A stretch of DNA of 63,799 bases, the filler included, from Kipferlia bialata (Eukaryota): NCBI GenBank assembly GCA_003568945.1. It is 5 parts of 5 records of this genome, joined end to end, with 100 filler letters (N's around TTAATTAATTAA, not from the genome) between each part and the next. Parts side by side here need not be neighbours in the genome. Positions count along the whole stretch, not along the records: positions 1 to 14,767 come from BDIP01000778.1; positions 14,868 to 29,630 come from BDIP01000779.1; positions 29,731 to 44,476 come from BDIP01000780.1; positions 44,577 to 59,303 come from BDIP01000781.1; 1 more part is not named here. One strand, given 5' to 3'. The notes under the pieces are model-generated. The model did not search any database. It had not been told where the DNA came from and saw nothing but the letters and a program-made list of their open reading frames with translations. Shown here in pieces: positions 66-55,500 of the stretch (within the stretch, counting starts at the first letter, position 1; the number at the start of each line of letters is the position of its first letter). The position numbers were made by a program, and so were the translations under genes.

Positions 66-198
66 CCTGACCTCTAGGACATAGGGGTGGTTGAAGGTGA
101 CCTGAGATGAGTATATTATATATATATACATAGATAGAGAGAGAGATAGAGAGATAGAGAGAGAGAGAGGCTCAGAATGAATGTGGCCATTGATACTA

Positions 199-246
<48 letters not shown>

Positions 247-1531
247 GTGGTTGAAGGTGACCTGAGATGAGGAAATGAAAATATACACAAATATAGAGAG
301 ACAAAGAGAGAGAGTATACAACATAGACATTAGATATGTCAGGGAGCGAGAGATAAGGAGAGATCTGATAGACGACAATATATATACCATATATATATAT
401 ATACCATATATATATTGTATATATGTATATAGTGACTGTAGAGAGAGAGAGAGAATGAGAGAGTCTTCCTAATAGACAGGATATACCTTGAAGTCTGGCG
501 ATGTTGACGTTGTGGTGGTGGGGCCTGGAGGTGAGTAAAGGGTGTAGCATAAGAGAGAGAGGGAGAATAGGGAGACCTGAATAGTAGCGGTTCGCACCAC
601 CTTCATCAAAACTGTATACAATTAGTGTATATACATAGTATATACTATACATTATATGAATGAAGAGAAATAGGCAGTGTGTTCTACACTTCTCATGTCA
701 TTATGAGAGTAATATATACCCGAGTAGTCATGCTCTGCAGCATCCAGCGCCAGGACCAGTCCAAAAAGTATATACTGATATATATATATATTAACTAATC
801 TCTCTATATACATATGTAATATAACGTAGTACAATATATATTTATTTGTTTACTAAATAGTCATGCTTAGCATATGTACTAATTAGGGTACCTGAGTAGT
901 CGTGCTTGGCAGCATCCAGTGCCAGCACCAGGCCAAATAGTATAGACTCATATATACACTATATATACATACTTAGTATACTGTATATAATATAGAGTAC
1001 TTAGTATAACATACGTATAGCATATACACTAGTACCTGAATAGTCATGCTTTGCAGCATCCAGTGCCAGCACCAGCCCAATGGACAGGAGGCGGAAGGAG
1101 TCAGCAACCTGAGAGGTAAGGTTACATACACATATATATACATATTTACACATAATACATACGAATTATAGTATAGTGTCATACCGATGGACAGGAGGCG
1201 GAAGGAGTCGGCGACCTACATTAGTAGGAAGTTATTAGTGGAGGATCCATTTGTCTTAAATCTTCTATAACATAAATACTACATCTACACATATACCTAA
1301 GGTTTCTGTTGCTTGAAGTACTGTCATTTATGACTAGCTATGTTCAATATATACAATACACACACATTCATGCATATATATACTCACCTGCCCTTCTAAG
1401 TCCTTGTGCACCCGTGCATTGTAGTCAGCCAGCCACTCAGATGGTACATCGGGGTCAGGCTGAGACCTATACGATTAGAGAGAGAGAGAGAGAGAGAGAG
1501 AGGGGACATCAGGATCAGGCTGGGATCTATA

Positions 1532-1568
<37 letters not shown>

Positions 1569-30365: not shown

Positions 30366-32578
30366 ATATATATATCTTACCTTAGGTACACCTCTGCCAG
30401 TGGCACCCATGACACTCTGTTCTATGGGGTGGACTACACACCAGAGTACAACGGACCAGGTACCAGTGCATATGCACACACATTCATTTATTCAATACTG
30501 TTTATACTGTATGTACTATGCTCTACATATACTATACAGGGGGGGGGGGGAGGGGGGCGACATACCAGATTACAACGAGCCAGGTAGTTATTGTGTATTC
30601 TTGCATTTGCAATATATCGTATTGAATGTATGTCCTAACCTCAGAGCCCTTCTGTGCCTTTGTGCAGGGTGATGGGATACAGATGCAATACGTAGTATAT
30701 TTACAACTAATACAACTAGTATAGTATATATACACTCACTCCAGAGCCCTTCTGTGCCTTTGTGCAGGGTGACCCCGAGGTGGCAGCACTCTTTGACAGC
30801 TGCATGGGGGAATTTAGGTGTGTATTATACACTATATATATATATATATATAGTATATATATATTGAGGGAGAGAGAGAGAGAGGGTGACCCCGAGGTGG
30901 CAGCACTCTTCGACAGCTGTATGGGGGAATTTAGGTATATACTATATACCACACACACATATATATATATATTTATAGAGAGAGAGAGAGAGGGAGAGAT
31001 ACATAGGGGTGGCAGCACTCTTTGACAGCTGCATAGAGGAATTTAGGTATATAGTGTAAATACTATATAAGTATATATATATAGAGAGAGAGATAGAGGT
31101 GGTAGCACTCTTTGATAGCTGCATGGGGGAGTTTAGGTATGTATATATGTGTATGTACCCTTACAGAGTGTCGTGACCTTCCCACCTGTATTCACGCTTT
31201 CTCTCTCTCTCCCTCTACACCCTTATTCCAGTGACAAGGACACCCAGACATTTGTGTTCACCCACTACCCAACGGCATTTCAGGCCAGGTACTCTCTCTC
31301 TCTATATGTATATCTATGTCTCCATGTGTATTATGTAGTATGTATACTCTCTCTCTCTCCCCTACACCCTTTTTCCCAGGCACGCCACACCCGATGCATC
31401 ATACAATCTCTCTCTCTCTCCCCCTCTACACCCTTTCTCTCTCTCTCTCCCTACACCCTTTATCCCAGGCACTCCACACCCGATGCATCGTACAAGCTGA
31501 CCCACCACCTGCATGCCGCATCCATCAGCAGGTACTGTCTATCTCTCTCTCTCTCTCTCTCTCTCTCCCTACACCCTTTATTGACACCAGACACGGTGAC
31601 GCAGGGATGGACATCACAGCCGCCAGTCTGCAGGTACTCTCTCTCTCTCTCTCTATCTATATATATACTCACACACACACAGTATTCTCTCTATACCTCT
31701 ACTGACTCTATACATTGGAAGATGGACATCACAGCCAGTCTACAGGTACTGTATAGAGTTCACGTGTATATAGTATAGAGTTCACGTGTATATATATTGT
31801 ATATATACAATTAATTGCATTATTATACTTGTATGTATGGAAATTATATATAATGATGTATTGCACTGGACTGTACTTCTCTCTCTCTCTCTCTCTATGT
31901 ATGTATACTAATGCTAGTCAAGCCATGCTAGAGTGTACACCTCCCACTCTGGTACCCTATCCATGACAGACATTGCATTCAGTGGGCTCTATGAGAACTG
32001 TGAGGTTGATTTAGAGGGTCTAGAGAGTAGCATTAGGGGTCTAGAGAGTGGTATTAAGGGTGCAGCTGACTGTGATCTGTCGTTCCTGTTGCCAATGGTC
32101 ATACCGGTGCTACCAGGTACTATACTACTGTATATATATATATATATCTGTGTGTGTTTGTAGGCTCTTCTACTGTAACGCACATCGCCGTACATCTCTA
32201 GTCATCGCCAATAGTTACGATAATCACTATATATCATCTCTCTCTGCCTCCCAATATTCACGACAACACTATTTCCTCACTCTAGGCCATGCCTCCTTGG
32301 TTGTTGACAACAACAAGGACGGTGCTTCTATTATTTATATTACTATGTGGTATTATTACTATTTCTTTATCCTTTACCCCTAGGCCATGCCTCTCTGATT
32401 GTTGACCACAACAAGGATGGGAATGAGGCACAGGGGATGGGCATGCAGGTATAGGCACACATATATATATATAAGTAGATATATATATATAGAGAGAGAG
32501 AGAGTCATAACACGGATGGGAATGAGGCACAGGGGATGGGCATGCAGGTATGTATGTATATACATATATTATATATAT

Positions 32579-32618
<40 letters not shown>

Positions 32619-34914: not shown

Positions 34915-34954
<40 letters not shown>

Positions 34955-35834
34955 TACAAGGACATGCGTGATGGTCTTCATTGGTGCTGTTGCTCTCTCC
35001 ATGCTGTGTCAGTGTGCACTCATGCCTGTGGTGCTGTACAGAAGGGACGTGAAAGTGTACAAGATTGCAGGTAAGAATATACATATTTGTGTATTTGCCC
35101 AACTATATACATGTCAAGGTCTACAAGATAGCGGGTAAGAATATATATATATATAAATAGTGTGCCTCCTACTGCCTTGCCCTGACCCTGGGTGCCTCTG
35201 TCTGTCTCTCTCTCTCTCTCTCTCCCTCCCTCTCTGTCTATATGTATATCTATATAGTGTATATACATACTCTAACCCAAGGCTATTGGTGACTGGCCTT
35301 ATATCTCTTTCTCTATATATATGTATATATATACACATACTCTTACCCAAAGGCTATGACGCCTCCTATTGTCTATACATATATTCATATAGTCTAATCA
35401 ATAGGCTATGATGCCTCCTATTGTCTGGCCCTGACCATTGGTGACTGGGCCAAGAGATGGGTCAAGTGGAGGAGGAGAGTGGCCTTTTGGCAGCTGAACA
35501 TTCTGAATAGGTATGTGTATATGGTGTGTGTTTAGATCTATAGTATAATTAGTGTCTATACATATTTCAACTGTGGCATTCTGGCAGTTGAACATTCTAA
35601 ACAGGTTAGTCCTTGGTATATTCTAGGCCTGGTGGTATGAGTATTAGTAGTGCATATTGGGATGGGGAATATTGGTTTCTTGGGCAATACGCATTCAAAT
35701 TTACGTTGGGGTAGTAATGGTCTCATTCTCTCTGACACTTAGCTGGGCTGGCATCACTAGTTCTGACAGGAGTGCCGCTACTGTGCCAAGACAAGGTATG
35801 TATGTATGTGTATATGTATATATTAGTATCTATC

Positions 35835-35874
<40 letters not shown>

Positions 35875-38800
35875 ACAGGAGTGGCACTACTGTGCCTAGA
35901 CAAGGTAGGACTAAGTAGTATATAAACATGTATATAAATGTATTATATGGATATAAATGTATATATATATATATGTAGAGAGAGAGAGAGAGATCATCAT
36001 GTATTCTTACACTTCAGCAGAGAACAGGTCACTCCGCAAGCCACCTTCCCAGTCCAGTCCACTGTTGACACGGATAACAGAGAGAGAAGGTATGCATTTA
36101 CATATATATGTATATATATATATAATCTTTATATATATATATGTATAGGGTATATACATAGTACAGTCCAGTCCACTGTTGACACGGATAACAGAGAGAA
36201 GGTATGCATAGATAGTACAATGCATAGAGTGTATATTGCTGCCCCCGACTGTGTATATGCCTATTACCTATATAAGTCTTATTCTATCTCTTAGACCACA
36301 GTGGTACGGAGTCGAGTGCCCTCCCCACCCACCGATTAACTCTCTCTCTCTCTCTCTATTACTCTCACAGTAGATGACAGTGGGACTGAGTCCAGTGCCC
36401 TCCCCACCCACCCATTGACCACCATAGACATGACACGACCCGGATACGGGACAACGGAGATAGGTATACATGCTCGTATAGTATATATAGGTGTCTAGTA
36501 TTGACCAGACCTGGATACGGGACTAGAGATGGGTATGAGACCATACTGTATATAGCGCCAATGTATATGCACACTAACTATCAGACACCTGCATGGACGA
36601 TAGTGACCTGGACAGTGCCAGATATATATATATATATATACATATATATATAGATTTAGTCCATTTCTCTCTATATATGAAGTACTCTCTCTCTGTCTCT
36701 CTCTCTCTATATATATATATATATTACTAACTATCAGACACCTGTATGGACGATAGTGACCTCGACAGTGCCAGAGACATGTCAGTCATGGACATGGCTC
36801 CATCACCCCTAATTCGCGGATCGAGGTATGTTCATAGTGTATATGGTTGCCATATATCCCTCATGTCTCCTGTTCTCTCTCTCTCTACACCCTCGGTGCA
36901 ACAGGTACCAGTGTTGATATATATACTATTCAATACATACTCCTATATGTACTGTCGTATCCAGTGTATGTATCACATCCCTTAATGCCCCAGGTGGCAG
37001 ATAGATACTCTCTCTCTCTCCCTCTACACCCTTAATGCCCCAGGTGGCAGACCAGCCACAGTGTGATATAGAGTATACGATGTATAGTATATATATAGAA
37101 TAGTAATAGTGAGTCAGTGTATATATCTATATATACCCTTACATCTTATGCCCCAGGTGGCAGACCAGCCACAGTGTTGTGTCCCGTACCACCAGTGCAG
37201 TCATGGGGGCAGGAAGCAAGGTACCTATATATATATGTATATATATATATATATATAGTATATGTATGTGTATAGTGTAGGTATCCCCCGCATCCAGTCA
37301 TGAGTGCAGGCAGCAAGGTACCTATATATATGTATTGTAGACTGTAATGTATAGTATATATATATATATATATGTATATGGTGTGTAGGAGGTATCCCGT
37401 ACCACCAGTGCAGTCATGGGGGCAGGGGGCAAGGTATGCATATGTGTATATATATGGTACAATGTGTCGACTCATATGTTATACTATTCTGCCAGTTCAG
37501 TAAGGAGTGCGGGCAGTAATGAAGAATATTATTCCAACGAGGAATACTTGTGTTGGTCGTGGATATATGATCATTGTTTCTAACGGCAGGTCCTTCCTTC
37601 TCTCTCTGTATATATGTATTCATATATATAATACCAGGTCCTGCCCTCCATCAAGAAGAGCCTGGCTGTCTTTGCCCTCAGAAGGGCCTCCATGGGCATC
37701 ACCTTGTACATACTGGGAGGTGTGATATATATACCTCAATAGTATATATATAGTATATATATATAAATAGTAGTATCAGTATATGTACTATATATATATA
37801 TAGTAGTGACAGTATATGTAGTATTTAGATATATAGTATTAACAGTATATATAGTATATACCAATACCGTGTCACACCTTTCTCGTGCCCTCTCCCCCTT
37901 ACCCCAGTCTGTATCGTGTGTGTCTACCGCCCCTCCATCGACTATCTCAGACCGGACAGTCCGTACGAGGCAGTCAGTGGGTTACTAGGTATATCTATGT
38001 GTATTACCTATGAATTGGGAGAGATAGATATGTGTATGAGAATATCAGACACGACGGTCCATACGAAGCAGTCAGTGGGTTGCTAGGTACTACTTCATAC
38101 GATAGAGGGATTTGCCTTTGTCAGTACATATACACACACTCTCTCTCCCCATATATGTATATGTATATATATACTATGATCCTCACCCTAGGCATGGTGG
38201 TCAAGGATATCCCTACCGTCAATGGTGTTGGGGATGCCTTTGTACTCTCTCTCTCTCTCTCTCTCTCTAACACTCAGGAATGGTCGTTAAGGACGTCCCT
38301 ACCGTAAACGGTGTAGGGGATGCCTTTGTCAGGCCACACACACTCTCTCTCTCTCTCTTTCTCTCTCCATATACATGCATATATACATATATATACTAAT
38401 ATACTCATCCTAGGCATGGTTGTCAAGGATGTCCCTACCGCTAATGGTGTAGGGGATGCCTTTGTGAGGACAGCAGGCCCAGTCATATTCTTCTACTCAG
38501 TGCCAGTAGTCCTACTCATGGTGACAGGTATATATATACGTATTAGTATACATATAACTTATGTACACATGTAGTGTGATGTGCTATATATATTGGACAG
38601 CAGGCCCAGTCATATTCTTCTACTCGGTGCCAGTAGTGCTACTAATGGTGACAGGTTAGTAGGACACCCACATATATATATATATATGTACACATGTATA
38701 CATAGATACATAGATATAGATATATAGATGCCTTTGTCAGGCCCAGTCATATTCTTCTACTCAGTGCCTGTGGTGCTGATGATGGTCACAGGTATATATA

Positions 38801-39229
38801 TATTTGTATATGTATATGTATATATTGAGATAGATACGTAAATAGTAGTATATATATATATATGTTCTACTCAGTGCCAGTGGTACTGATGATGGTCACA
38901 GGTGTACACATGTATATTTGTATATACCCATATTGGTATGTATACATGTAGTAGGATATAATACTTCGACTCCGTACCTGTGGTGCTACTCATGGTCACA
39001 GGCATCTCTCTCTCTTTCTCTTTCTCTCCCTCTCTCTCTTTACCCTCTATATGTTTTCTTACCATCAGCCTCGTTCCACCTGTCTACATCCACCCTGCCC
39101 CCCTTCCCACCTCTGTCTCTCTCTCTCTCTCTCTCTCTCTAGACCCTCAATTAGGAATCAATCTAACCCTAGCTTCCTTCCACCTGTCTACATCCACCCT
39201 GCCCCCCTGCCCCCCTTCCCTTCTCTCTG

Positions 39230-39261
<32 letters not shown>

Positions 39262-40079
39262 CCGCTAGACCCCTAATATTCAGCCTCGTTCCACCTCTCC
39301 ACCTCCACCCTGCCCCCCTTCCCATCTAGGGCACTGTCGCCACACATCAGACCACCCTTACTGCCCGTCAAGGTAATGGTATTGTATGCTATAAATAGTA
39401 TACATGTATATGTATGCATATATACTCCTATAGTCCCATCTAGGGCCCTGTCGCCACACATCAGACCACCCTTACTGCCTGTGAAGGTATAGTGGTATCT
39501 ACTATATATAGTATACATGCATATATATGTATGTGTATACTCCTATAGTCCCTTCTAGGGCACTCTCGCCACACATCAGACCACCCTTACTGCCTGTGAA
39601 GGTATATAGTATGTACTCTAGCTACTGCATGTATTCCTCCCTTCCTGCGTGTCAAGGTGTGTATTTTGTAGATAGTGTATATAGTATTCTACAGTAGCGA
39701 TATGTTGTTGCGTACATCTATGTGTGATACGTATACTTATACTGAACCTCAGACCTGCCAATATCAATTGTATCAAACAGATTATCCATCATTTCTCTAT
39801 TCTCTATTTTTTGCTATTGCTACATATACATATATATCTATACATACACTGACCCCCAGCAATGGAGACCTGCCACCATAGGGTGCCTCATGGTGTTCAT
39901 GCCATTGATTGAGCCAGTGGTCTGTCTCATCACACCCATGCATAGGTTGAGTATGCAGCACAGTGTGAGGTATAGAACTATGTAGTATATATATATATAC
40001 ATAGTATATAGTGTGTGTGTGTCTGGTCACACCCATGCACAGACTCAGTATGCAGCATAGCGTGAGGTACATCATCCTA

Positions 40080-40119
<40 letters not shown>

Positions 40120-41059
40120 GGACTCTTATTGACACAGTCTAGTGTATATGTATATAGTAGTGTATGTGTGTGTCTGGTGACACCCATGCACAGACTCAGT
40201 ATGCAGCACAGTGTGAGGTACAGTACTATGTAGTAGATATATATATATATATAGATGTGTACATAGTATATAGTATATGTGTCTAGTGACACCCATGCAC
40301 AGGCTCAGCATGCAGCATAGCGCGAGGTATATAACTATGTAGTATATATATATATATATATATACATAGATATGTATATAGTAGTGTATATGTGTCTCAT
40401 CACACCCATGCACAGACTGAGTATGCAGCACAGTGTGAGGTATAGTACTATGTTGTATCTATCTATCTATCTATATATGTATATGTATGTATGTAGTAGT
40501 GTATGTGTGTGTATGGTCACACCCATGCACAGACTCAGCATGCAGCATAGTGTGAGGTATGGTATATGGTGTGTATTGAGAACTAAATGTAGACATACAT
40601 TGTGTATGTAGTCTGTGGTTCACAGACACATGGAATCTCTGTCTCTCTGTCTCTCTCTCTAACTCTAGCTGGTCCAAGCAACGTCTGGGTAACACCTTCA
40701 GCATAGTGCTTGTGACCACTACCTCTCTCTCTCTTTCTCTCTGTATATCTATATACTATATACACTTCTCATCCCAGTTGGTCCAAGCAACGTCTGGGCA
40801 ATGCCTTTAGTATCGTCCTAGTCTCCTGTGCTGTCCTTGTGACCACTATCTCTCTCTCTCTCTCTCTCTCTCTCTACACCCCTTATTCACCCTCAGCTGG
40901 TCTAAGCAGCGCCTATCCTCTGCCTTTAGTATTGTGCTTGTGTCCTGTGCCGTCCTTGTGACCACTGCCATAGTCTATGTCTGTGTCTACTTGATATGTG
41001 ACACAGTGGACTTTGACGGGGCGGGGGCATTGCTGAGGTATATATCAATATGATATATG

Positions 41060-41094
<35 letters not shown>

Positions 41095-41385
41095 GACTTT
41101 GACGGGGCAGGGGCATTGCTGAGGTAATTGTCAATAGCACCTCTTCACCCCTTAACAGTCATCAAGATATCTCTCTCTCTCTCTCTCTCTCTACACCCTT
41201 GTTGTTAACAGTCAGGGAGTCCTTCCCCGTTCTAGTCACTGCCGGCCTGTCTATGCTGTGCATCTCTCTCTCTCTCTCTTTCTACACCCTTATTAACTCT
41301 TAGGGAATCGTTCCCCGTCCTGGTCACTGCCGGCCTGTCTATGCTGTGCAGACTCATCCACTATATATTGCACTTCAGGGAGTGA
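29894..41385 (+). CDS. TMEM62-like metallophosphoesterase plus multi-pass membrane protein, over 20 exons, 5' partial
   Basis: QTFVFTHYPT, YKLTHHLH, MDITAASLQSSHARVYTSHSGTLSMTDI and PMVIPVLP follow the TMEM62 order (GHYP, GHLH, ELELGDW..YRI...FSFAD, WPVVLITNP). Several hydrophobic helices follow. Ends LCRLIHYILHFRE* (TGA 41383-41385). Confidence 0.62.
30744..31140 (+). repeat. Exon-echo array (GDPEVAALFDSCMGEF): intact exon plus three 3' copies
   Basis: Copies at ~30885, ~31007 and ~31097, each ending TTTAG|GT and starting out of (GA)n-rich sequence. Confidence 0.9.
38191..39002 (+). repeat. Exon-echo array around exon 38414-38527
   Basis: Two upstream 5' copies (GMVVKD[I/V]PTVNGVGDAFV) with acceptors. 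Four progressively shorter downstream 3' copies (..VPVVLLMVT|G[T/C]). Confidence 0.92.
39860..40560 (+). repeat. Exon-echo array: exon 39860-39969 plus five 3' copies
   Basis: C[L/M][I/V]TPMHRLSMQHS[V/A]|GT at ~40020, 40171, 40280, 40393 and 40510, each emerging from a (TG)n tract. Confidence 0.93.
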
Positions 41386-42114
41386 GGAGAGGTGGAGAGA
41401 GATAGGGAGAGAGAGAAGTAGGAGAGAGAGAGAGAGAGTTGGTCACTGCCGGCCTGTCCATGCTGTGCAGACTCATCCACTACATACTGCACTTTAGAGA
41501 GTGATAGGAAGAGAGAGAGAGAGAGAGAGAGCAGACTCATCCAGTGCTGCGCTTTAGGGAATGATCGGAAGAGAAGTGTGTGCGTGTGAGTATGTGGGTG
41601 GGAGAGAGACTCATCCACTGCGTATCACTTTTGTAGGAGTGATGAGAGAGAGTGACAGAGAGAGGGGGGGGGAGATGATGATGCTGTATGTTTACGTATG
41701 CCAAGGTTCCGTCTAGTTTAGTGGTTTCAAGTGTACAAGCAAGCTAGGGAGAGAGAGAGTGTGTGTACTCATGTTGGTAACCACATGGTCTGATGCGTAT
41801 TGGACCCCATTACAATATATATGTTCGTTATATGTGCCTCATACTTTGTGCAGTTACAGGGGACTACACAGCAGATCTTGCTACACAATTGCAGTTTATC
41901 CACTAGTGTCAGGGTCTGTCATACAAAGGCTCAGTGGAGTGCTAGCACTGTGCTACAGTGTAGCAGCTACACCCGCAATATGTAGACTCTGTTACTTGCG
42001 TAACGGCCATATCCTAAGGCTACGGCGACGCTTCGTATCAATAACTGGTATTAGCAAATTGGATAACACATAACAAGTGTTAACACATAGATAGAGAGAG
42101 AGCTAGAGTATTGG

Positions 42115-44476
42115 TCATATCCTACGACTGCGCCGACGCTTGGTATCCTCAAGAACTAGGGTGTGCGTACAGAGTATAATGATAAGGGTTATAGCCCAAT
42201 ACATATGTAAGGATCTCCCTATAAGACATATATGTATACCTGCTGGGTTCTCTTCCTCTATAATCTATACTCTCTCTCTCTCTCTCCCTAAATGTAAATA
42301 TACATACAAAGCAATGTATATATGTACATATAGGAGTATGTATGTATATGTATGAGTTTGTACTGCTGTATACCTGCTGGGTTCTCCGTCTCTTCCTCAG
42401 GCAACGTATTGGCACTTATACTAACTCTCTCCCCTACTTGCTCTTCTTGTGTCTCTCTATCAGCTGCTGATGCTGAGGCATTGTCATCGTCACTTGATGT
42501 GCATACGTTGATTATACCTGGGAATCAGTTATATATACTTATAGCGAGAGGGAATATGAATATCAGAGAGCGACAGGGTAGGTATATCCACTCCAGTGTT
42601 CAATATACTATGTGGGGGAGAGCGGGATAGAAATACTGTGTGTGTGGGAGAGGGGGAGAGAGAGAGGAAATACGTTCATACCAGGCAATGACTCCTTACA
42701 CGAGGATATAGGTGGGGATGTATGGACAGGCGGAGCCTCAAGGGCAACGGCATTGCACACACCTGGGGTAAGTGAGAAGAACCTTAATATCAATATGGTG
42801 TAGAGAGAGAGAGAGAGAGAGCATCGTACTAGTTTGGGCCCTGTTGGATACGTAAGTTCTAGGTATAAATACACTTGACCCCACTACACGTTACATCTCT
42901 GGCTATACCGTGTCTGTCAAAGTACTGGGCCTTATGATACTATCTACATATATATATATATATATATATATCTCCTAGTATTTCTATATATATATGCATC
43001 ACTAACCGGAGCGTGTCTGTCATAGAACTAGTCAATATATAATACTACATTCTACCAAAATAGCTATTATATACTATATATACTATATATAGTATATAGT
43101 ACTTGCTAATCACTAACCCGGTGCGTGTCTGGCCATACCGTGTCTGTCAAAGTACTGGGCACGTTTGCTACTCAATCGACCTGCGTGTAAGACGTTGTGC
43201 TTATATGCATGTATGTAACATATAGCAGTGTATATATTGTAACTGAATATGTCATATACGATCCCGTTTGCTACTTAGGCGTACTGGGTGTAAGACAGAT
43301 AAACACACGCAGACACAAACATAAGAGACCTGTGGGTTGTGAAGCTAGATGTCTCTCCTGTTCAGAAAGAACATGAGTGTCCATACAATACACACATATA
43401 TACAATTGTGTTTGGGTATTTACATATATACAAGTGAACGCATACACCTGACTCTTCTGGGTATACATGCAGTATGCCCCCTAGCACTGTGTAGCACAGC
43501 CACACCACTGCTAGACATGCACCACCGAGGGCCGCAATGACATAAGGACCATAGTACCTAGAATGAGAGGGAGAGAGAGAGAGAGGCCTTAATACCTATG
43601 CTGAAGAAGAGACAAATACACACATGTATAGAGGTAATAGAGCACCCAAAATACATACTATGAGCACTATAATGCACATTAGTCTCATAACGTGTTACAT
43701 GCGTAGCAACGTACATGTGTGTGCTCCTAGGCGCCTGCCAGTACTCATGCTCCATTGACAGGGAAACATACATCAGGTAGAATCTAAGGGCGGACTCCGC
43801 AGCGAACAGGACCGATGCTAAAGATAGCATGCCGAAATAGTACTGTGAGTTAGAGAAAAAGAGAGAGAGAAAGAGAGAGTATTGGGAGGACGGCTGCTTA
43901 AGAGACCATGCCAGAATGGTACTATCTACTATACACACACATATATATACACGGTACTATATAATATACTTACTTGCATACAAATTTATACACATATCAT
44001 ATACTTACCTGTCTCCTATCTGGGTTCCCATCCTCGACAGCCTCTGAGAAGTAGCTCTCATAGAAGAAGGTGACTGACTGTCAGATACACACCATTGAAT
44101 GATAACATCGGTAAAGTATATGTTTTGCAGTAGAGCATATATCCTCCAGAAGAGGGTGACCGGGTATCAGTAGTCTATCCTACTACAGTATATATTGTAT
44201 ACATATAGTAGGGCATATATATCTACCATAGTATATATTGTATACATGTAGTAGGGTATATATATGTAGCTCTCATAGAAGAAGGTGACCGGTTGTAAGT
44301 ACTATACAGTGTGTTACTATTACCATTATATACAAGTCTACTATACTATAGTATCTTCCACTTGACTGTAAAGCGTTACATAGCCACGACCACTCAGAAT
44401 GTATAACTGTACCTATAAGGGCTATCTCGAGCCCCAGCATGATGAGCCAGCCCCAGTCCCAGGCACCTGCCGCAAT
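42115..44476 (-). CDS. Multi-pass membrane protein with acidic cytoplasmic tail, 5' partial
   Basis: Exons IAAGAWDWGWLIMLGLEIALI, VTFFYESYFSEAVEDGNPDRRQ, YYFGMLSLASVLFAAESALRFYLMYVSL, YYGPYVIAALGGACLAVVWLCYTVLGAYCMY, ... LEDTKRRRSRRI*. Confidence 0.6.
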
Positions 44477-44576: not shown

Positions 44577-44873
44577 CCCCCCCCTCTCTCTCCCTCCAAC
44601 CCCTGTCTGTTTATGTTATATACCTACCGACTTCCCTCTCTCTCCACTATCTCGATTTCTATGTCCCTCCTTCTCTGCCACTCCATTCACTCATGTGCCC
44701 TAGTAATATGTATATATAGATATACTTATTGGTTTCCACATATCATATGTGACATATGTGATATTAATCCTTCTCTCTCTTCCCCTCATACCAGATGCAA
44801 GTACCCTGGACTGTGACACTGTCTCTGTTGGTCAAAGTGCATAATATTCCTCTCTCTACCCCTAATATACCAG

Positions 44874-45746
44874 ATGCATGTTCATTGGATTCCAGTACCC
44901 CGGTCTCTGTTGGTTCAAGTTCACCTGACCCCCTGACACAGAGAGGCACTCTCATCAAGGAGATGTTGGGAGTATGTTGCAGGTAGAGAACACATTATAA
45001 TGTATTGTAGTAATATAGTAATATATCTGTATTATAGTATTATACCTGTTCAGTCGTAAGTACTACTCTCTGGCTCTCTCCTACATCTGCGCTCCCTGGG
45101 ATCTATCTCTCTCTCCCTCCCTCTCTCTTCCTCTCACCGCCTAGAATTGCATCTGCTGCACTGACCCACTACCAGGACGGGGTGTGCAAGGTACTGTGTA
45201 TCATATTTAGTTTACTGTGTACAAATATATGTATTCTTGTTAATCTATGTATTCATGTATAGGTGTCAGAGGACAAGATACGCCTCCACTGCATTATGTG
45301 TCTAGAGGGAGAGAGAGATAGAACAGTGACACATGGTGACAGTGCCATACAGAGACAGAAGGAGAGAGAGAGACAGAAGAGGGATGCCGCCCTGGTGGCC
45401 CTGCTGTCTATGCACAAGGGGGTGGCTAGTGTGCAGGTAAATTGACTACATATATATATGAGTATACTCATATTATATTGTATACTATATACTATATATA
45501 TAGTATAATCTAGTGGCCCTGCTGTCAATGCACAAATGGGTGGCTAGTGTGCAGGTATATGTGTATAGGTGTATGCTATATTGAGTCTCTCTATCTCCTC
45601 ACTATGAGACTATAGTCTCTGTCCCTCTGCATGTGCGTGGTCCATAGTCTCTATCTCTATACAAATATGTCTTCTGTATATATATATATACCATCACTCA
45701 TCCATATACTGTGTCTGACCCCTCCTCCACTGCCTGGTGTATAGAA

Positions 45747-45779
<33 letters not shown>

Positions 45780-45838
45780 GTATGTATGTCTTTGCTAACC
45801 ATTCAGACTGTGTCTGACCCCTCCACTGCCTGGTGCAT

Positions 45839-45872
<34 letters not shown>

Positions 45873-46757
45873 CATATATTCTCTCTCACCCCTAGTCTGT
45901 CTCTGACCCTACCTCCGCTGCCTGGTGCATAGTGTCATCGGCAAGGGGGGTGGCATCAGGTGCAAAGAGTACAAGGTATTAGTATCATCACATACATACA
46001 TTACAGTATACTGAGTATTTATGTATGTATGTGCATAGTGTCATCGGCAAGGGGGGTGGCATCTGGTACAAAGAATACAAGGTATGGTAGATATATATTC
46101 ATAAATGTATATCTCTATCCACTCCGGATATGTCTAAACTCAACTCTGACCACAGCAAGAGACGTGCACCCTCCCCAATACCCAACCCCAGACACAAGAG
46201 AGGCAGAGAGAGAGGCAGAGAGAGGGGTAGGGTCAGTCAACAGGAGGAGTTCCTGCATGACCTGTTGGCTAGTGTGCCTGGGGTGTCTGGTGATGTGGCA
46301 GAGGCAGTGGCTAAGAAGGTACTTGTGGATACTATATCTGATATATATGTATATATAGTATATCCTGCTGTCTGGTGTGCCTGGGGTGTCTATCGATGTG
46401 GCAGAGTGTGTGTCATAAGGTATAACTATGATATTGATATACGTATTGTGTATATAGTGTATAGATATTATGACCTATTGTCTGGTATCCTCAATACATT
46501 GTATACTTAGATACCACTAGGTCACTCCCCCATACATACCCAGTGTATGATGTTGATACAAACCCCAGCATGGGTCTCTTGTCTCTCTGGCCAGTGCTCT
46601 ATCAGAACCAAAGAGTAGTGGGGTAAAGAAGGGAGGGAGAGAGACAAAGAGAGACAGCAAGGGTAAGAGTAAGAAGCCTACTCCTGTCCTCAAGGGTCCT
46701 GGTACATCTGCCATCACAGCACTGATGATGAGTGAGGACAGGGATGCACCGTTGTAG
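44874..46757 (+). CDS. EME1: EME1/Mms4-like crossover-junction endonuclease subunit, C-terminal part
   Basis: Degenerate ERCC4-like segment (IMCLEG...DAALVALL), HhH EFLHDLLASVPGVSGDVAEAVAKKHGSLVSLASAL, and terminal GPGTSAITALMMSEDRDAPL*, which resembles the EME1 C-terminus. Confidence 0.6.
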
Positions 46758-47545
46758 TGAGTGCTGTGTTGGAATTACCTGTGTCACAGGGTCAACTGAG
46801 TTCTTTCAGAAAGAAATGGATGTGTGTTACACATATATCTGCTATCATAAATTGTTTGCCCTTTCCCACTCATAAGTATGGTTCCGTCAACACTATTCTA
46901 GCCCCTCCATTCACACAACGAGTAATATTGGGGGTTTAGAGGAGAGGAGGATACAAAGAGAAGAGAGGAAGAGAATAGGAGTAGAGAGAGGCAGTATGCT
47001 GAAGGAAATAGAGGGCCCATGCCCTGAAGAACAAATCTCCTACTGGCTATGCAAGTGAAGGCGATAGTATCAAATATGGAGGCAACTGGGAACATGGAGA
47101 AATTACATTGTTCTATTATACAGTTGCTCCGGAAGAGCGTTGCAGTATGAAAAACTACTATTATGAGTATGAGAGAGTATATAGTAGTTCTGCTTGACTG
47201 ACTGAATAGTCAGTCATCCTGCCTTCGTCTTTCTCTTCTTCCCCTGTCTCTCTTACAACCTATGCGTATCTCGACCAGGCCTCCACAAATGAGCAAAGGG
47301 TACATGTACAGTGCATATCCATACACTGATCGAGTGCGGACCACACTACTACCACACCACTCGCTTGACTCGGTCACCATGTACTGCCTGTCCAAACGAC
47401 ACTGCTGTCGACCCAATGCACACATACACCAATTCAGTATGCCTTGCCAAGGGAACACTCGAAACGACGGGAGGGTAGGGGGGGGTTGTCTGCATACACT
47501 CTAGAGCCCCAGTGATGAAGTCAGTGAGAGCTCTGAGATGGGCTG

Positions 47546-47628
47546 CGTATGCCCCTCTCTCTCTCTCTCTCTCTCTCTAGTGCGTATGCCCCTCTCTCTC
47601 TAGTGCGTATGCCCCTCTCTCTCTCTAG
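47546..47628 (+). repeat. Three tandem copies of GCGTATGCCC(CT)nAGT just beyond the stop of the minus-strand gene
   Basis: Seen directly; unit length varies through (CT)n. Confidence 0.85.
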
Positions 47629-49978
47629 TTACCGCTTCCCCTTCCTCTCCTGCCTCCATGCCTCCCTGGCAGCAGACAGCACACCTGATACTGCCCTGGG
47701 TGTTAGTATATGAATACACCCATATATATATATATACAATAGTCAATACATTAGGTCTCCCTGGCAACACACAGCACACCGGACACGGCCCTACAGAAAG
47801 GAGTAAGGAGCAAGGATATATCTACATTATAACACTCCAATGTACATATATACAAGAGTGGTTCAGACAGCACACCTGCGAGGGGCAGGGAGTAACACAC
47901 CATATATGTATATATACTCTACTCGATAGCTTATACTAGTATAGTAATATATATATATACCTAGTCTTCTGTAGAGCATATCCCGCCCCCACCCACTGCC
48001 CAAGGGACAGGGGCAGAGAGACATCCATCATAAACAATACTGTATATATATAAATATATATAATTAATACTATTGTCATTATATATATACCTAGTCTTCT
48101 GTAAGGCATATCCCGCCCCCACCCACTGCCCAAGGGACAGGGGCAGGGATATCCACTATATATATGTATGTATACACATATACCTTATCATAATTGTATT
48201 AATATTATATATATACCTTGTCTTCTGTAGGGCATACCCTGCCCCCACCCACTGGTTGAGTGATAGGGGCAGGGAGACAGACTGGGTGGAGAGGAGAGAG
48301 GTCAGGGCCTTGTGGAACCTCTTGTCCCTTGGGGTTAGGGAGAGAGAGACAGAGAGAGAGAGAGAGACAGACTGGGTGGAGAGGAGAGAGGTCAGGGTCT
48401 TGTGGAAACGCTTATCCCTTGGGGTTAGGGAGAGAGAGAGAGAGAGAGAGAGANNNNNNNNNNNNNNNNNNNNNNNNNNNNNNNNNNNNAGAGAGAGAGA
48501 GAGAGAGACAGACTGGGTGGAGAGGAGAGAGGTCAGGGCCTTGTCCCTAGGGGTGAGGGAGATGTATATATTAACTATATATACAATCTATTTATAATAT
48601 AAATATACATTAAACATCAAGTATCTGGCCATGTCATGGTGTCTCTTGACAAAGGCGGTGAATATATATACATACACCACATATACACTGCATATACAAC
48701 ATACTATACAATATAGACTATGTATATACACACCTACAATGCATCAGGTCTGTGGCCATGTCTGGGTATATATATACATATACTATACATATATATACTA
48801 TATATATATATATATATGTATACTATGTATACTATGTATACTATGTATGTACCTGCAGTGCATGAGGTCTGTGGCCATGTCTGGGTATATATACATACAT
48901 ACACCATACATTATATACAATACACTATATACATTATATAATATACACTATATATATTATACACTATACACTATATACTATCCTATGTATACTGTGTATA
49001 TATGTATACCTGCAGTGCATGAGGTCTGTGGCCATGTCTGGGTATATATATATATATATACACATACACCAAATATACACTACATATACTATTTCTACTA
49101 CATACTCTATACATATATACTACATATACTATACACACCTGCAGTGCATCAGGTCCGTGGCCATGTCTGGGTATACATATATATATACTATATGTATATA
49201 TACATACACTATATACACTATACACTATCTACACTATGTAAATACCTACAATGCATCAGGTCCGTGGCCATATCTGGGTGTCTCTTCACCAATGCAGTGT
49301 GCAGGGCAGTGCCCTCAACAATAATGGCTAGAGGTTAGACAGGTTCATGTATACATACAATTATAGAGAGAGAGAAAGAAAGAGAAATTATGGACCAGGG
49401 TGTAGAGCAGTGCCTTCGACAATACCAGCTAGAGAGGTTGGAGCCATGTGGAATATGTATAGGAAGGGGGGAGAGAGAGGGAGAGATTATGGACTAGGGC
49501 AGTGTACAGGCCAGAGCCCTCAACAATGATGGCTAGAGGTTACACATACTACAAGTCTCCATATATATATATATACATATAAATGAATGGAGAGAGAGAC
49601 AGAAGGAGTTGCCCTCAAAATGGGTGTGGTTGAGAGAAAGAGAGGGAGAATGTGTAGTGTTCTCAAGGCTCAACGTTGATGAATTGAGGTAAGAGACACG
49701 TATACACGTAGATAGAGAGGGTATGGAGAGACACACAAGGATGCATACCGGTGATCAATGCATGGAACAACTCAGGGTCCCCACTCTGGTACCTGGAGAT
49801 GAGACACGTGGATAGAGAGGGGACACAGTATGTGACACAACACGTACACTCTGGGATCAAGGAAGATATCCCGCCTCAGGTACCCTCTGAGCCCAGTCTC
49901 AAGACCCCTAAGCTCACTCACAAACAGTGGGTTAGGCACAGGAGCACGCTTCTTGGGGAGAGGAGGACAGGCGTGCAT
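47629..49978 (-). CDS. Small hypothetical protein, five exons, heavily echoed
   Basis: MHACPPLPKKRAPVPNPLFVSELRGLETGLRG, YQSGDPELFHALIT, AIIVEGTALHTALVKRHPDMATDLMHCR, DKRFHKALTSLLSTQSVSLPLSLNQWVGAGYALQKTR, CAVCCQGGMEAGEEGKR*. Confidence 0.55.
48620..49535 (-). repeat. Exon-echo array around exon ~49247-49328
   Basis: Two upstream 5' copies (~49400-49535) and five downstream copies (PDMATDLMHC-type at ~49140, 49010, 48853, 48735; internal fragment at ~48622). Confidence 0.9.
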
Positions 49979-50152: not shown

Positions 50153-50634
50153 ATGGCGCATCCCGATGCGTCTAGAACCACAGGCTCTGCGGCACCCGTG
50201 AGTGTCCTACACAGTGCCAGCTTCACTGCGACCTACTCCTGGGGCAAGAAGCTTGGCGAGGGTGCCTTTGGAACCGTTCACAGGGTGAGGGGTCTAGTAT
50301 ACAGGGGTATATACGATATGTCTGTATGATGGTTTGAAATGGGGGTGGAGTTATGTGGGCTTATACTGCCTGTGGGTGTTATGGGTGAGCTGTAGGTCGC
50401 AGAACGTGCCGTGTAGGTGTGTGTGCGGTGTATACCCTGGGTGTGGGTGGCTATATTTGTATCACTGACACCGACTGTATGAGATTGATCTCAGCCTGGT
50501 GTTAATGTCTTGTCAGTAACCCCTGCACCCTGTCGCTGTGTATATGTATATCAAACTGACCCCAGGTGACCAGGAGGAGTGATGGCAAGGTGTTTGCCGG
50601 CAAGAAGCTGAACCTGGGAGAGCTCAGGAGAAAG
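50153..50634 (+). CDS. Ser/Thr kinase N-lobe (NEK-like), first two exons only
   Basis: YSWGKKLGEGAFGTVHR|VTRRSDGKVFAGKKLNL: GxGxFG loop and catalytic Lys. The rest of the domain is not found before the poly-C tract at ~50891-51002. Confidence 0.75.
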
Positions 50635-50891
50635 GTGAGGGGAAATCATACCTTAACCTTAATCTGTACAGGTGTTGTATAATTGCGACTTATATGGACG
50701 TCTAGGGGTTGAATTCTGCCGCGGGTTGTATATTGGTGGGTTAGTGTACTAGAGTCCCTGTGTATGACTGAGCTTCTTCACTTGTCAAGAACATGCATAC
50801 ATACTTGGGTACGGATATACTTGGGGGGGGTGGGGGGGGCACTCGAGTACCCCCACTCTTGATTTCTTTTGGTGTTACACTAGTTGGTGCG

Positions 50892-50928
<37 letters not shown>

Positions 50929-51075
50929 CCCCCCCCCCCCCCCTCCCCCCCCCCCCCCCCCCCCCCCCCGCTTTCTCCCCCCGTCGCTCCTCCCCCCCCC
51001 CCACTCTCTCTTTCGATCCTCTCTCTTCCTTGTTCTATCTTGTCTCTCATATATAGGTCCATGTTGACAACCACG

Positions 51076-51114
<39 letters not shown>

Positions 51115-51153
51115 GATACTATCTCGTTACTGTCTCTGCCTTGTCTCACCCAG

Positions 51154-52545
51154 GTCCATGTTGATAATTGTGGCCTGAGCAATGAAGTGGTATCCCTCAT
51201 CAGTACCTATGTCAACTTGTCAAGTGAGGAGAGACAGGAAAGGGCGGAGGAGGAGAGAGAAGTGAATGAGTGGGCAGACATGATGGCGGCTGATTATCTA
51301 GAGGATGAGAGACTAGAGGCTGAGAGGCTAGAGGCGGAGAGACTAGAGGCGGAGAGGCTGGAGGCTGAGAGAGTAGAAGCAGAGAGGGTTGAGGCTGAGA
51401 GACAGCGTCTGCACCAGGAGTGGCTGGTGTCCCTCCCCCCTCTTGTCGATACACTCCTCTCCCGCATAGACAGACTGGAGAAACTGACCCAGGTACATCC
51501 ATCTCTCTCTCTCTCTTTCTCTGTCTGTCTCCCCAATGCCCATTCTCTTTCTTTCCCCCCCCCTCTCTGTCCCTCTTTCTCTCTCTTATATATATACATG
51601 TATATCCAAGCTAGAGACTCTGACCTCAGGGCGTAGGAGAGCAGTTCAGAGCCTTCTCCGCCGACTCCCTCCCCACCCTCTCCTCTCTCAAGGTGTCCCT
51701 CGAGGCCCATGATGCCAGTGCCATACCCACCACTGTATCCAGTATCACATCCTATACCCCAGTGGCACAGGGATTGGAGGCATCTCTCTCTGAGCTGACA
51801 GGGTTCCTGGAGGCACACCCTACCCCCATGCTAAAGGTATTATGTGGGTATTTATGCACAACATAGGGACACATATTCCCTGAGGTATAACCATATACTT
51901 CCCAACCGACTCCCCCCCCACGACTCTGTTGTGTACACGCATATGTATATATATGTCTCACCCCCAGGGCGAAGACTGTGCATCTCTGTAGTTAGGTGTA
52001 TATATATACTCTCTCTCTATATATATGCTATGCACCTGCCCCCACTCCCTTCTCACCCCCAGGGCGAGGACTGTGCCTGCCTCCACCTCACCCTGTCCAC
52101 CCTGTTGACATGCTTCACAGAGTGCTATGAGGCAGTCTCCTCCTGCACAGACACCTTCAACCCAGAGGAGGGGGTAGGTCTGCTACGCACTGCCTCTACG
52201 TTGCTAGATGCAGTCCGTGCCACATACCCCATACCCCTGCCCCTGGACACCACCGCATTGGACCTGGATGGCAGGTATGTGTATTTGTATTTGTGTATAT
52301 AGAGAGAGAGAGAGAGTGCAGTACTTTGTGACCCCAGGGCCAAGTACTTTGTGGCACAGCAGTACAACACTGTGCTGGCTGAGGTCTATAGGGTGGCACA
52401 ACCACTAATACAGGTGGCAGGGCAGGTATGGTGTTTATGAAATATGTTTTACTAGCCCCTCTACCCCCCCCCCCTCCCTACCCTTCATTGTTTGCTAGGT
52501 CGCAGAACAGGTATTGTGTGAGTAGGTTTAGGGATACCGGTGTTC

Positions 52546-52580
<35 letters not shown>

Positions 52581-55500
52581 CCTCATATGATGTGACGCCA
52601 GACTGACTCCTGTATCCACTCGATGCAGGGTGTACCAGTATTGATGTACACTATACATCATTATAGTTTATCACTACGATGTATTGGTGCTGATCCTCAG
52701 ATTGACTCCTGCCTCCAGTTTATGCAGGGTGTCTCCCCTCCAGACATGGACGAGTGCACAAGGGTCAAGGGACAGGTGCGGGCAAGTTGTAGTGCTATAT
52801 ATTGTATACTATTAGTATCACCCCCCCCCCCTTTCCCCTGCTCCTTCTGTCTTCAAAGCTTCGTCTCTAGAGCTGTACATGGTATACTCCCCCCTTAATC
52901 CTCTATGTCTCCTCTTCTCTAGCTATGTGAACTCTACTCCATATATAAGTCCCTTTTAGTGTCCTCACCCCCAGGCCTCCTCCCTCCTGCTCCAGCTCTC
53001 CCTCCTGGCTGGCAACCAGAGAGATATAGCAGCCCTGGTCTCATGGCTGGATGACCATCCCCCTGTGGCACAGGATGCAATAGAGGCACTGACTGAGGAC
53101 AGGTATACATAGTATAGTATATATAGTATAGTACATATATATATACATATTATATACATACTCTATTTATACATCTGTGGCACAGGATGCAATAGAGGCA
53201 CTGACTGAGGATAGGTATATTCATAGATATATACACTACATATGTGAAGGATATTTAGACGTGACCCCCCTCATGTCTCCCCCTCTCTTTCTCCCCATCA
53301 TCCAGGTAACCCCTCTGATACTCACCCCAGGGCTGACCTTGAGTACAAAGTTGTATACATATACAAGCTCTGGTCTCGCTCTCTCTGAGGATATTACTTT
53401 TACAACCAACCCCAGGGCTGACCTTGAGTACAACTGTTCCAGGACACGTAGACACACGCCCCAGGAGATTCAGAAGATGAAGGTATGAATAATGATTAAT
53501 GAATATTGATTCTCATACTGGAGTAGAGTCTACTCAGTAGACCATGTAGTATCAGTGGCTACTACCTTCTTCCCCTCTCATTACGTATGACCTTGTGTGG
53601 CACTCTCTGACTGTCAGGCCAAGATGTGTGGGATTGACCTCGAGCTCTCTGCCTTACTGGCCTGCCAGTCTGCTAGGAGAGAGAAGATGGAGAAGCTTAG
53701 CAGATACGCATCATTCCCAGAGGCCGCAGGTACCCAGCGTCTCTTGCTCTTGCGCACTATCTATGTCTCTCTCTACTTAGATCTTCATCCTCCCCTCGCG
53801 CCCATATTGTATTTATGCAAGTGACTGATCTCTCTCAATATGCTACTTTCACCTATGAGACTAATCCCCCAGCCGTCCTCTCTGCCCCCTCTTCCCACCC
53901 CCTGGACACCCACCCCCTGCTCTCCCCCTTCAGACACATGTTCTGTGACTACTCACTGGCGCAGTTCAAAACGGAGGTGTCAGACATTTCTATATAATAT
54001 AATATATATACCTCCATTGTCTCTCTTTCTAGTAAGTGATCCAATGTATCATCTGCCCCCCCTCCCCCCCTCATCTCACCATATAGGACTTCCCTTCTAG
54101 TGGCAGGGTCCCCCTCCTATCTGGCACACACCCAGTCACACAGGCACCGGTGGTGCTCAAGCAGTACATACTCAGGTGGGATACACGCAGTATAACACTA
54201 TATATATAATACTCACTGATCTCTACGGTGTTGTTTTGGTTTTAGTAGCTGTTCTCCTTCTTTTGGTCTGACACTTAGGGATGTACAAATCTATTCTGAA
54301 TGACTGGTGTTGTTTTCATATGTGTACTCTCACCCATTGTCCTGACCCCCAGAGATGACTCTCAGAATGCCAGTGTCCGCAGAGAGCTCTCAGTCTTCAG
54401 CAAGGTACTGTAGTGTGTATACCTGATATCCTTATCTTCACATGTTCGGTACAATTGCACTGGGATCTATATTGAATGGATGGAAGGCGTCTGTTCTATT
54501 TGTATTCTCTCCCGCCAGGTCCTCGAGCGTGCCTCCAATGTGGTGCACTGCCATGGGTTTGTGATAGACGGGGACATGTGCTACGTGGTGCTGGCGAGGT
54601 CTATAGTTATTATATATATATATGTGTGTGTGTACTATTACTCGATGATATCACATATATATATACGTGTATATATTCATTGTAACCAGGTAGTGCCAGC
54701 CAGTGTACACGCCCTTACCCCCAGGTACACCTGTGACCTTGCCCAGTATGTGAGTCAGTACCAGCCTAGCACACGGGTCAAGAAGAGCATACTCAGACAG
54801 GTGGGTAATATATTCACACTATGTAACCATTCTCTATAGTGAGTATGTATACCTACCCTCACCCCCAGGCCCTTCTCGGTCTCTCTGCCCTATCCAGCTT
54901 TGGCATCGTCCACAAGGACATCAAGCCGCAGAACATACTCATCAACGTGGAGGTGCGTACATTTATGTCTGGTTCATCTATAGAACTCACTACTCCACCC
55001 CATTTGTGTAGGTTGTAGCAATAGTATAGTACCTCTCTCTCTTACCCCCCAGGGTAGCTGTGTGACTGGGGTAGCTCCTTACCTAATGCGTGTAGTCATA
55101 TTATAGTACCTCTGTCTTACCTCAGAGTGGCTGTGTGACAGGTGTTGCCCTGACTGACTTTGACATATCCAAGACAGCCCAGGACTACATAGCAACAGTG
55201 TCCAGGACAATGAACACAGGGGCTGGGACCATAGGATACATTGACCACAAGTACGATATGATTCTAGCAATACTTCAGGCCCCTATAATTATATATGATT
55301 CTGTGTGATCCTTATAACCCCAGGTACAGCCTAGGCTACGGTCTTCCAGGCCAGTCCGGTCTCAGGTTCTGCCACCTCTCAGACGTGTACTCTCTCGCAA
55401 AGGTATTCGGCCGTACATGCACTAGATTGAATGTAATATACTAGACGATAAGTTGGGTATCTATACTCACTCTCCAGGTCTGTGTGTGGCTGTTCCAACC

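What the first reader, a model, noticed from the sequence alone, without database searches (positions are those of the whole stretch)
66..53420. 'Exon echoes': introns filled with truncated copies of the neighbouring exon, across unrelated genes
Seen: in at least seven unrelated genes (SIR2-like, DUF1963, CRIB, TMEM62-like, the membrane gene, EME1-like, the small gene at 47.6-50 kb) most intact exons are flanked by 1-6 partial copies, 20-70 bp long, separated by (AT)n/(AG)n/(TG)n. The order is exon by exon (a' A a'' b' B b''), not whole-gene duplication. Inference: a genome-wide duplication and contraction process centred on splice junctions that builds much of the intron mass. I do not know of a description of this architecture, but I could not search the literature.
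Basis: partly seen in the sequence, partly recalled or inferred. Interest (0 to 1): 0.95.

Follow-up and report, generated by a model that had tools for sequence, protein, structure and literature searches.

The report
Retired exon edges stacked in introns
In the free-living protist Kipferlia, introns hold stacks of unused half-copies of the neighbouring exon that differ from it mostly by silent changes, so they are likely retired working versions left behind by recombination between very different alleles, which would give a record of sex and population diversity readable from one genome.

Summary
Observation confirmed. The window is five scaffolds encoding proteins named Kipferlia bialata. 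In 131 curated exons I found 141 partial copies (15-91 nt); 57 of 74 exons in seven genes carry them. Polarity is strict: acceptor plus 5' part upstream, 3' part plus donor downstream, none reversed. Independent DNA contigs reproduce the junctions; a spliced contig skips every copy. The layout is known as lancelet "mirages". What is new: differences from the true exon are mostly silent (4-fold sites 213/789, 0-fold 172/2900; corrected ratio 5.4, at most about 2 for copies of the own exon); exon, inner and outer copy are equally far apart at silent sites (38:35:35); copies keep branch points though their intron flanks mostly differ; copies also lie past stop codons. Best reading (0.55): retired junctions of diverged alleles, left by one-sided homologous repair finished at a microsatellite, tolerated by exon-definition splicing. 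It implies silent diversity near 0.2-0.3 and recombination in a group where sex is unobserved. Genome-wide extent, long reads and other strains are untested.

The parts
487..5709 (-).
   Evidence: open frame across 14 AG/GT exons; copies
5001..5049 (-). Upstream copy of exon 4938-4840: 10 nucleotide differences in 14 codons, same 14 amino acids
6603..12366 (+). DUF1963-like gene, 13 exons, 11 copies, two of them past the stop codon (12226-12260, 12333-12366)
12700..14721 (-). CRIB/PBD gene, 4 exons, 11 copies, one past the stop codon (12719-12700)
17427..25028 (-). ABC2-membrane/S41 gene model (KIPB_003868), 26 exons, only 7 short, little-diverged copies
29812..41642 (+). TMEM62-like gene (KIPB_003871), 26 modelled exons plus one in an assembly gap, 60 copies
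29894..33843 (+). Eleven exons joined in one spliced contig (8 listed, 3 inferred from a 163-nt length match); 22 copies skipped
33521..34058 (+). One DNA contig with no difference that spans copies on both sides of exon 33776-33843
   Evidence: table 8 record 8
38192..39001 (+). Exon 38414-38527 with two upstream and four downstream copies, differing mainly at third codon positions
   Evidence: alignment
39860..40556 (+). Exon 39860-39969 with five downstream copies sharing one breakpoint; 10 of 21 informative site pairs incompatible with a single tree
41440..41642 (+). Three copies of the terminal exon's end, each ending in a stop codon, in the 3' untranslated region
42008..44288 (-). Membrane-protein gene, 7 exons, 5 copies
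44795..46983 (+). EME1-like gene (weak HhH hit), 6 exons, 8 copies
47628..49792 (-). Small gene, 4 modelled exons, 13 copies (2 upstream and 5 downstream of exon 49327-49246)
50153..58440 (+). Kinase-HECT-IBR gene (KIPB_003875), 31 exons, only 4 copies; identical protein on another scaffold

Best explanation
The introns hold unused half-copies of the adjacent exon, each with one splice signal, and these are likely retired working junctions from other alleles of the same gene, likely left when a break inside an exon was repaired from a diverged homologous chromosome at one end and closed by microhomology at an intronic microsatellite at the other. Shown: strict polarity, skipping in the spliced contig, silent-site bias, three-way symmetry, kept branch points, unlike intron flanks, short microhomology with tracts. 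Inferred steps: (1) exons are the only stretches still alike between diverged alleles, so strand invasion would start there; (2) copying would run through the donor's exon end and splice signal into its intron and stop in a (CT)n/(AG)n/(AT)n tract; (3) joining to the other broken end would leave one whole exon and push the resident half-exon with its old intron outward; (4) unequal exchange between exon and existing copies would add more copies with the same breakpoint; (5) only arrangements that form no false exon would survive, and the spliceosome would pick the nearest acceptor-donor pair across the exon (exon definition); (6) after retirement copies decay neutrally.
For: Silent bias: 4-fold 213/789, 0-fold 172/2900, corrected ratio 5.4, bootstrap over 65 exons 3.7-7.6; holds for each base (3.2-5.6) and without CpG (4.3); 5.3 in the contig-defined exons, 6.8 in annotated genes, 4.2 in hand-curated genes; the same aligner gives 0.101 vs 0.106 on neutrally mutated copies. 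Copy-copy pairs 111/338 vs 90/1418; changes private to one copy 45/456 vs 57/1694. One triplet per array (29): silent private changes exon 38, inner 35, outer 35 of 322 sites; 0-fold 10, 12, 21 of 612. 18 of 44 informative site pairs incompatible with one tree. Simulation: within-genome models give ratios 1.4-2.0; allele swap at diversity about 0.2 gives 3.3-14. Copy acceptors keep the branch motif 28/47, true 82/121, other intronic AG 21/558, while only 11-18% of flanks beat the 95th percentile of unrelated introns. Inner core between last donor copy and first acceptor copy: median 121 nt, like copy-free introns (128.5). Microhomology mean 2.6 vs 0.66 nt in the 25 copies abutting a pure tract. 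Literature: fornicates lack NHEJ and Rad51A and keep Dmc1 (PMC8516963 section 8); K. bialata has PolQ, four Dmc1 and five Rad52 entries, Spo11 (its Supplementary Data 2); Dmc1 residues aid repair from >=20% diverged donors (PMC6719624 section 17); K. bialata inferred diploid (PMC5874029 section 11).
Against: No second allele or strain was found: the two proteins checked are single-member clusters, and two metagenome scans found nothing. The implied silent diversity (about 0.2-0.3) is very high. Flank likeness does not track silent divergence (Spearman -0.02 and -0.17); in the 39860 array near-identical flanks go with 3-8 of 14-15 silent differences, which needs very fine-scale recombination. 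20 of 135 copies have no substitution against 5.1 expected from one pool (short copies are only detected when near-identical, but some may be sister copies). Only 25 of 135 copies abut a pure tract. Upstream and downstream copies do not tile the exon significantly (p 0.09). EME1-like, CRIB and the 42-44 kb gene show weaker bias; ABC/S41 copies are little diverged. The triplex review says stalling is stronger on purine templates, so strand logic at the tract is open. Sites within arrays are not independent.
Confidence: 0.55

Rival explanations
1. Same repair process, but the donors were diverged gene copies inside one nucleus (old hybrid, polyploid or long-asexual homologues, since lost or homogenised), not alleles drawn from a recombining population.
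For: Explains silent bias, kept branch points and unlike flanks equally; K. bialata is inferred diploid.
Against: Up to six mutually different, mosaic versions of one exon need many donors; no diverged second copy of the two proteins checked.
Confidence: 0.2
2. The copies are under selection now: used in rare isoforms, in inside-out (nested or recursive) splicing, or as repair templates for the exon.
For: Copy splice sites score as well as true ones (true stronger 25 of 47 acceptors, 29 of 63 donors); inner cores are normal-sized introns; amino-acid changes are somewhat conservative (mean BLOSUM -0.23 vs -0.72 expected).
Against: The spliced contig skips all copies; 20 of 26 indels shift frame and 6 mismatches lie in stop codons; using a copy's site leaves an open in-frame exon in 11 of 128 cases, and in-register GT/AG pairs exist in 5 of 135; only 10 of 55 upstream copies could regenerate a donor; template use inside one genome gives a ratio of about 2.
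Confidence: 0.08
3. Classical mirage: slippage or unequal sister exchange copies the gene's own exon edge, and the copy decays neutrally.
For: Gives the polarity, microhomology, shared breakpoints (33 of 67 pairs) and some identical copies.
Against: Ratio 5.4 against a ceiling of about 2; silent bias in copy-private changes; six copies of 28 nt or more with no difference have unlike intron flanks.
Confidence: 0.07
4. Each event rewrites the working copy with a very error-prone polymerase, selection keeps only silent outcomes, and the old copy is retired.
For: Would give silent bias and scrambled flanks without population diversity.
Against: Predicts a chain; observed private silent changes are 38:35:35 (p 0.92 for 1:1:1, 0.009 for 2:1:1); needs error rates near 0.2 on all four bases.
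Confidence: 0.06
5. Assembly artefact: alleles or strains joined end to end.
For: Copies look like alleles; the organism is inferred diploid; the draft has gaps; the laid DNA run may be the source sample; 11 repeat stretches of the laid region were skipped.
Against: Four separately assembled contigs bridge exon and copies with no difference at depth 408-445, across stretches whose longest exact repeat is 13-27 nt; copies are truncated, frameshifted and decay more with distance (0-fold 22 near vs 41 far in 29 arrays); polarity is strict.
Confidence: 0.04

Closest known systems
Amphioxus 'mirages' (Adh3, globins BflGb6 and BflGb9, troponin C, PGBD5; PMC3087553 passages and Additional file 4, PMC3902484 passages; the founding 2002 paper was not held)
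   Same: Tandem copies of an exon-intron boundary, at 5' and 3' edges, many keeping AG/GT, skipped in mRNA. Read by eye, three BflGb6 repeats differ from their exon at six positions before the breakpoint, all silent, so the signature may be shared.
   Different: Mirage units repeat the intron part (about 55 alignable nt in BflGb6) and show concerted evolution; here flanks are mostly unlike and copies are star-like. Reported at single loci in an animal; here 57 of 74 exons in seven genes of a protist, also past stop codons. The passages read call the mechanism unclear and do not mention silent bias.
Rogers-type intron gain by tandem duplication of an AG|GT exon segment (as summarised in PMC3087553)
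   Same: Short intragenic tandem duplication involving splice signals.
   Different: There the copies form the intron's ends, downstream-exon copy first; here donor-type copies precede acceptor-type copies in 22 of 22 introns, at least 19 nt from the junction, and no new intron is made.
Duplicated exons on Drosophila simulans-clade Y chromosomes (PMC8794474 passages)
   Same: Extra exon copies near the working gene, linked to microhomology-mediated end joining.
   Different: Whole exons or exon blocks in giant heterochromatic introns without a homologue; no edge polarity reported in the passages read.
One-sided invasion / FoSTeS-MMBIR repair (PMC4888836 passages and a reference title; details recalled)
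   Same: Duplication with 2-5 nt microhomology at the junction; one homologous and one non-homologous end.
   Different: Known from rare rearrangements and gene targeting, not as a recurring builder of introns.
Base-paired long introns of Giardia, Spironucleus and Trichomonas (PMC6679479 passages)
   Same: Related organisms, branch point close to the acceptor.
   Different: Folding does not single out the true sites here.

Membership tests
Mirage repeats | Head-to-tail copy spanning an exon-intron boundary, at 5' and 3' edges | tested here: met
   55 upstream and 79 downstream copies of 141
Mirage repeats | Splice dinucleotides often kept, yet mRNA is normal | tested here: met
   AG 48/55, GT 62/72; spliced contig skips copies
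Mirage repeats | Minisatellite-like unit in which the intron part is repeated too | tested here: not met
   Only 11-18% of flanks exceed the unrelated-intron 95th percentile; a minority of arrays do repeat it; lancelet units align over the intron part
Mirage repeats | Concerted evolution within a cluster | tested here: not met
   Copy-copy divergence equals copy-exon divergence at silent sites
Mirage repeats | Copy-number differences between haplotypes or cells | not testable with these tools
   Only contigs of one sample; no copy-skipping joint among the 15 of 22 joints shown
Rogers-type intron gain | Copies form the intron ends, downstream-exon copy first | tested here: not met
   22 of 22 introns have the opposite order; spacers of 19 nt or more
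Tandem exon duplication / mutually exclusive exons | Whole exon copy with both splice sites and an open frame | tested here: not met
   1 of 141 copies is near-whole and it starts inside the exon; 20 of 26 indels shift frame
Recursive or nested splicing | Intermediate sites are used, or a site is regenerated after the first step | tested here: inconclusive
   10 of 55 upstream copies start with GT; no raw RNA reads or lariats available
Exon-definition splicing | Outermost sites used although inner sites are as strong | tested here: met
   the molecular mechanism itself is inferred

The most novel reading that the evidence does not exclude
Kipferlia introns grow by collecting the exon edges of other alleles, so one genome stores a stack of past alleles: it records recombination among lineages with silent diversity near 0.2-0.3 in a group where sex has never been seen, shows exon-definition splicing in a short-intron fornicate with a reduced spliceosome, and supplies the missing mechanism for mirages in highly polymorphic animals.
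Probability: 0.45. Interest if true: 0.92.

Novelty: new variant of a known kind. Interest (0 to 1): 0.78.

Why it matters
It ties intron growth to how breaks are repaired between diverged alleles in a lineage without classical end joining. [quoted passage not shown] Introns with up to seven equally strong decoy sites are a natural test of exon versus intron definition in an organism with 87 of 174 spliceosomal proteins (PMC6679479). The codon test is cheap and can be run on lancelet and sea-urchin mirages. Practical: copies can mislead gene prediction, since several translate identically to the true exon.

Tried and rejected
Reads could be laid only on 29731-34123; both runs are contigs of one sample, the RNA label is a guess (its exon-only joined pieces fit a spliced transcript), and no raw or long reads were listed. 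Parts without RNA cover were not used as evidence. Metagenome scans with an intron motif and with the TMEM62-like protein found nothing. Full-length search of that protein found only itself. An unnamed ENA protein (P0011) gave no BLAST match to the others and was dropped. Automatic gene prediction made errors; I curated eight models by hand and checked frames. Dropped rows: 32 of 173 hits (score under 30 or low complexity), then 6 mid-exon hits for the 135-copy statistics; the exon in the gap at 34124-34223 and the last SIR2-like piece were left out. Rejected: RNA bridge between (AG)n and (CT)n (both tracts in 4 of 119 introns; true and decoy sites equally paired; end distance no shorter than shuffles); insertion of a whole new exon into the old one (tiling p 0.09); base-composition or CpG cause of the silent bias; aligner bias. 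The founding mirage paper was not held. Supplements seen: Supplementary Data 2 rows of PMC8516963 and Additional file 4 of PMC3087553; bioRxiv supplements were not viewed.
Full report
Source. The window is five scaffolds joined by spacers (1-14767, 14868-29630, 29731-44476, 44577-59303, 59404-63799). Three window exons matched proteins at 100% that the sources name Kipferlia bialata, a free-living fornicate. The published draft reports 124,912 GU-AG introns and, from k-mers, a diploid nucleus; the passages and section read do not mention duplications or microsatellites (PMC5874029).

The observation. After masking simple sequence, 177 of 190 self-matches are direct and under 800 bp apart; none at that range is inverted. 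I built ten gene models with 131 exons: two from named proteins, eight by hand, all with AG/GT ends and open frames. The public annotation of the TMEM62-like gene uses the same copy in 26 of 26 exons; 21 agree at both ends, 4 differ only where I cut the protein, 1 by a 3-nt acceptor shift. Aligning each exon to its neighbouring introns gave 173 hits, of which 141 passed score 30 and a complexity filter. Controls: 0.76% of 1572 unrelated pairs reach 28; 5 of 2066 non-adjacent introns and 1 inverted search hit. In seven genes 57 of 74 exons have copies; two genes are poor (6/26, 4/31). Intron length rises about 99 nt per copy (rho 0.76, 119 introns).

Not an assembly artefact, at short-read level. 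Laid on 29731-34123, four DNA contigs bridge a true exon and one or more copies with no difference, at depth 408-445, over stretches whose longest exact repeat is 13-27 nt. The run may be the source sample, and 11 repeat stretches were skipped, so long reads remain the final test. One 5216-nt contig of the second run lies on exons only: eight pieces are listed and the 163-nt remainder equals three further exons. It skips all 22 copies there.

Anatomy. Upstream copies are acceptor plus 5' part (55), downstream copies are 3' part plus donor (79); 7 are mid-exon or near-whole; none is reversed. AG is kept in 48 of 55, GT in 62 of 72. Seven copies lie past stop codons, five keeping a stop, so the process follows the edge of coding sequence, not splicing as such. 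In 22 of 22 introns with both kinds, donor copies precede acceptor copies; the core between them has the size of a copy-free intron (121 vs 128.5 nt). Of 25 copies abutting a pure tract, 14 of 16 upstream ones abut (CT)n and the 9 downstream ones (AG)n or (AT)n, with mean microhomology 2.6 nt against 0.66.

The unexpected result. Differences between copy and exon fall on codon positions 118:74:339. At 4-fold sites 213 of 789 differ, at 0-fold sites 172 of 2900; corrected ratio 5.4 (3.7-7.6). One copy has ten differences in fourteen codons and the same protein. A copy of the gene's own exon can reach only about 2, with or without conversion inside the genome; swapping with other alleles at diversity about 0.2 gives 3.3-14 and spans the observed values. 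The bias holds between copies and in changes private to one copy. Exon, inner and outer copy carry 38, 35 and 35 private silent changes, but 10, 12 and 21 at 0-fold sites: equal standing at silent sites, plus a little decay that grows with distance. Copies are mosaic (18 of 44 site pairs incompatible; saturation may add to this). Their acceptors keep branch motifs (28/47; true 82/121; other AG 21/558), and 21 of 54 keep one while differing from the exon's own acceptor at four or more of twelve letters; flanks are mostly unlike. They are not working now: 20 of 26 indels shift frame. So each copy and its splice signal evolved as a working junction, apart from the present one, and was then retired.

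Mechanism (inferred). Fornicates lack Ku-type end joining and Rad51A and keep Dmc1 (PMC8516963); K. bialata lists PolQ, four Dmc1 and five Rad52 entries and Spo11; Dmc1-type residues help repair from diverged donors (PMC6719624). A break in an exon repaired from a diverged homologue at one end and closed by microhomology at a tract gives exactly one whole exon plus a retired half with its old intron. Unequal exchange then adds copies with shared breakpoints (33 of 67 pairs). Whether donors were population alleles or old gene copies in one nucleus cannot be settled here. Against: no second allele or strain found; flank likeness does not track silent divergence; excess of identical copies (20 vs 5.1); weaker bias in some genes.

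Splicing (inferred). Copy sites score as well as true sites, folding does not hide them, and using them would rarely keep the frame (11 of 128). Use of the outermost sites fits pairing across the exon; the reversed order, which would build a false exon, is absent. Nested splicing is not excluded.

Comparison. They share the layout and the skipping, but repeat the intron part and evolve in concert; two defining features are not met here. By eye, three lancelet repeats differ from their exon by six silent changes only, so the allele reading may extend to them. Searches found no account for Kipferlia; none used the word mirage.

Verdict. Real, dense, a new variant of a known kind; the silent-site signature and what it implies carry the interest. 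Interest 0.78.

Noticed in passing
window 50153-58440 (+): The kinase-HECT-IBR protein has a 100% identical partial twin on another scaffold (KIPB_007001) and eight more paralogues at 35-47%; this young family is poor in exon copies, as expected if it lacks allelic partners.
   Followed up: partly
window 32012-32060 (+): A coding exon holds an in-frame internal repeat that resembles the reverse complement of a common intronic motif; it is in the spliced contig.
   Followed up: no
window 31200-31231 (+): An intronic (CT)n-linked motif upstream of acceptors draws summed contig depth near 265,000 against about 430 for unique sequence, so it is a genome-wide intron motif of unknown role.
   Followed up: partly
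window 17427-25028 (-): The annotated protein joins an ABC2 membrane part and an S41 peptidase part across a 987-base assembly gap; it may be two genes. Its exon copies are few and little diverged.
   Followed up: partly
window, all modelled genes: 102 of 122 exons end in AG, and the branch motif lies a few bases from the acceptor, as in diplomonads.
   Followed up: no
window 15335-15933 (-) and 60521-60846 (+): Further local direct copies in two genes that I did not model, so all five scaffolds have some.
   Followed up: no
window 59404-63799 (+): A gene whose predicted exons look like leucine-rich repeats (my reading, no family search), nearly free of copies.
   Followed up: no
PMC3087553 Additional file 4: Lancelet BflGb6 repeats D3-D5 differ from their exon at six positions, all silent, read by eye.
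   Followed up: partly
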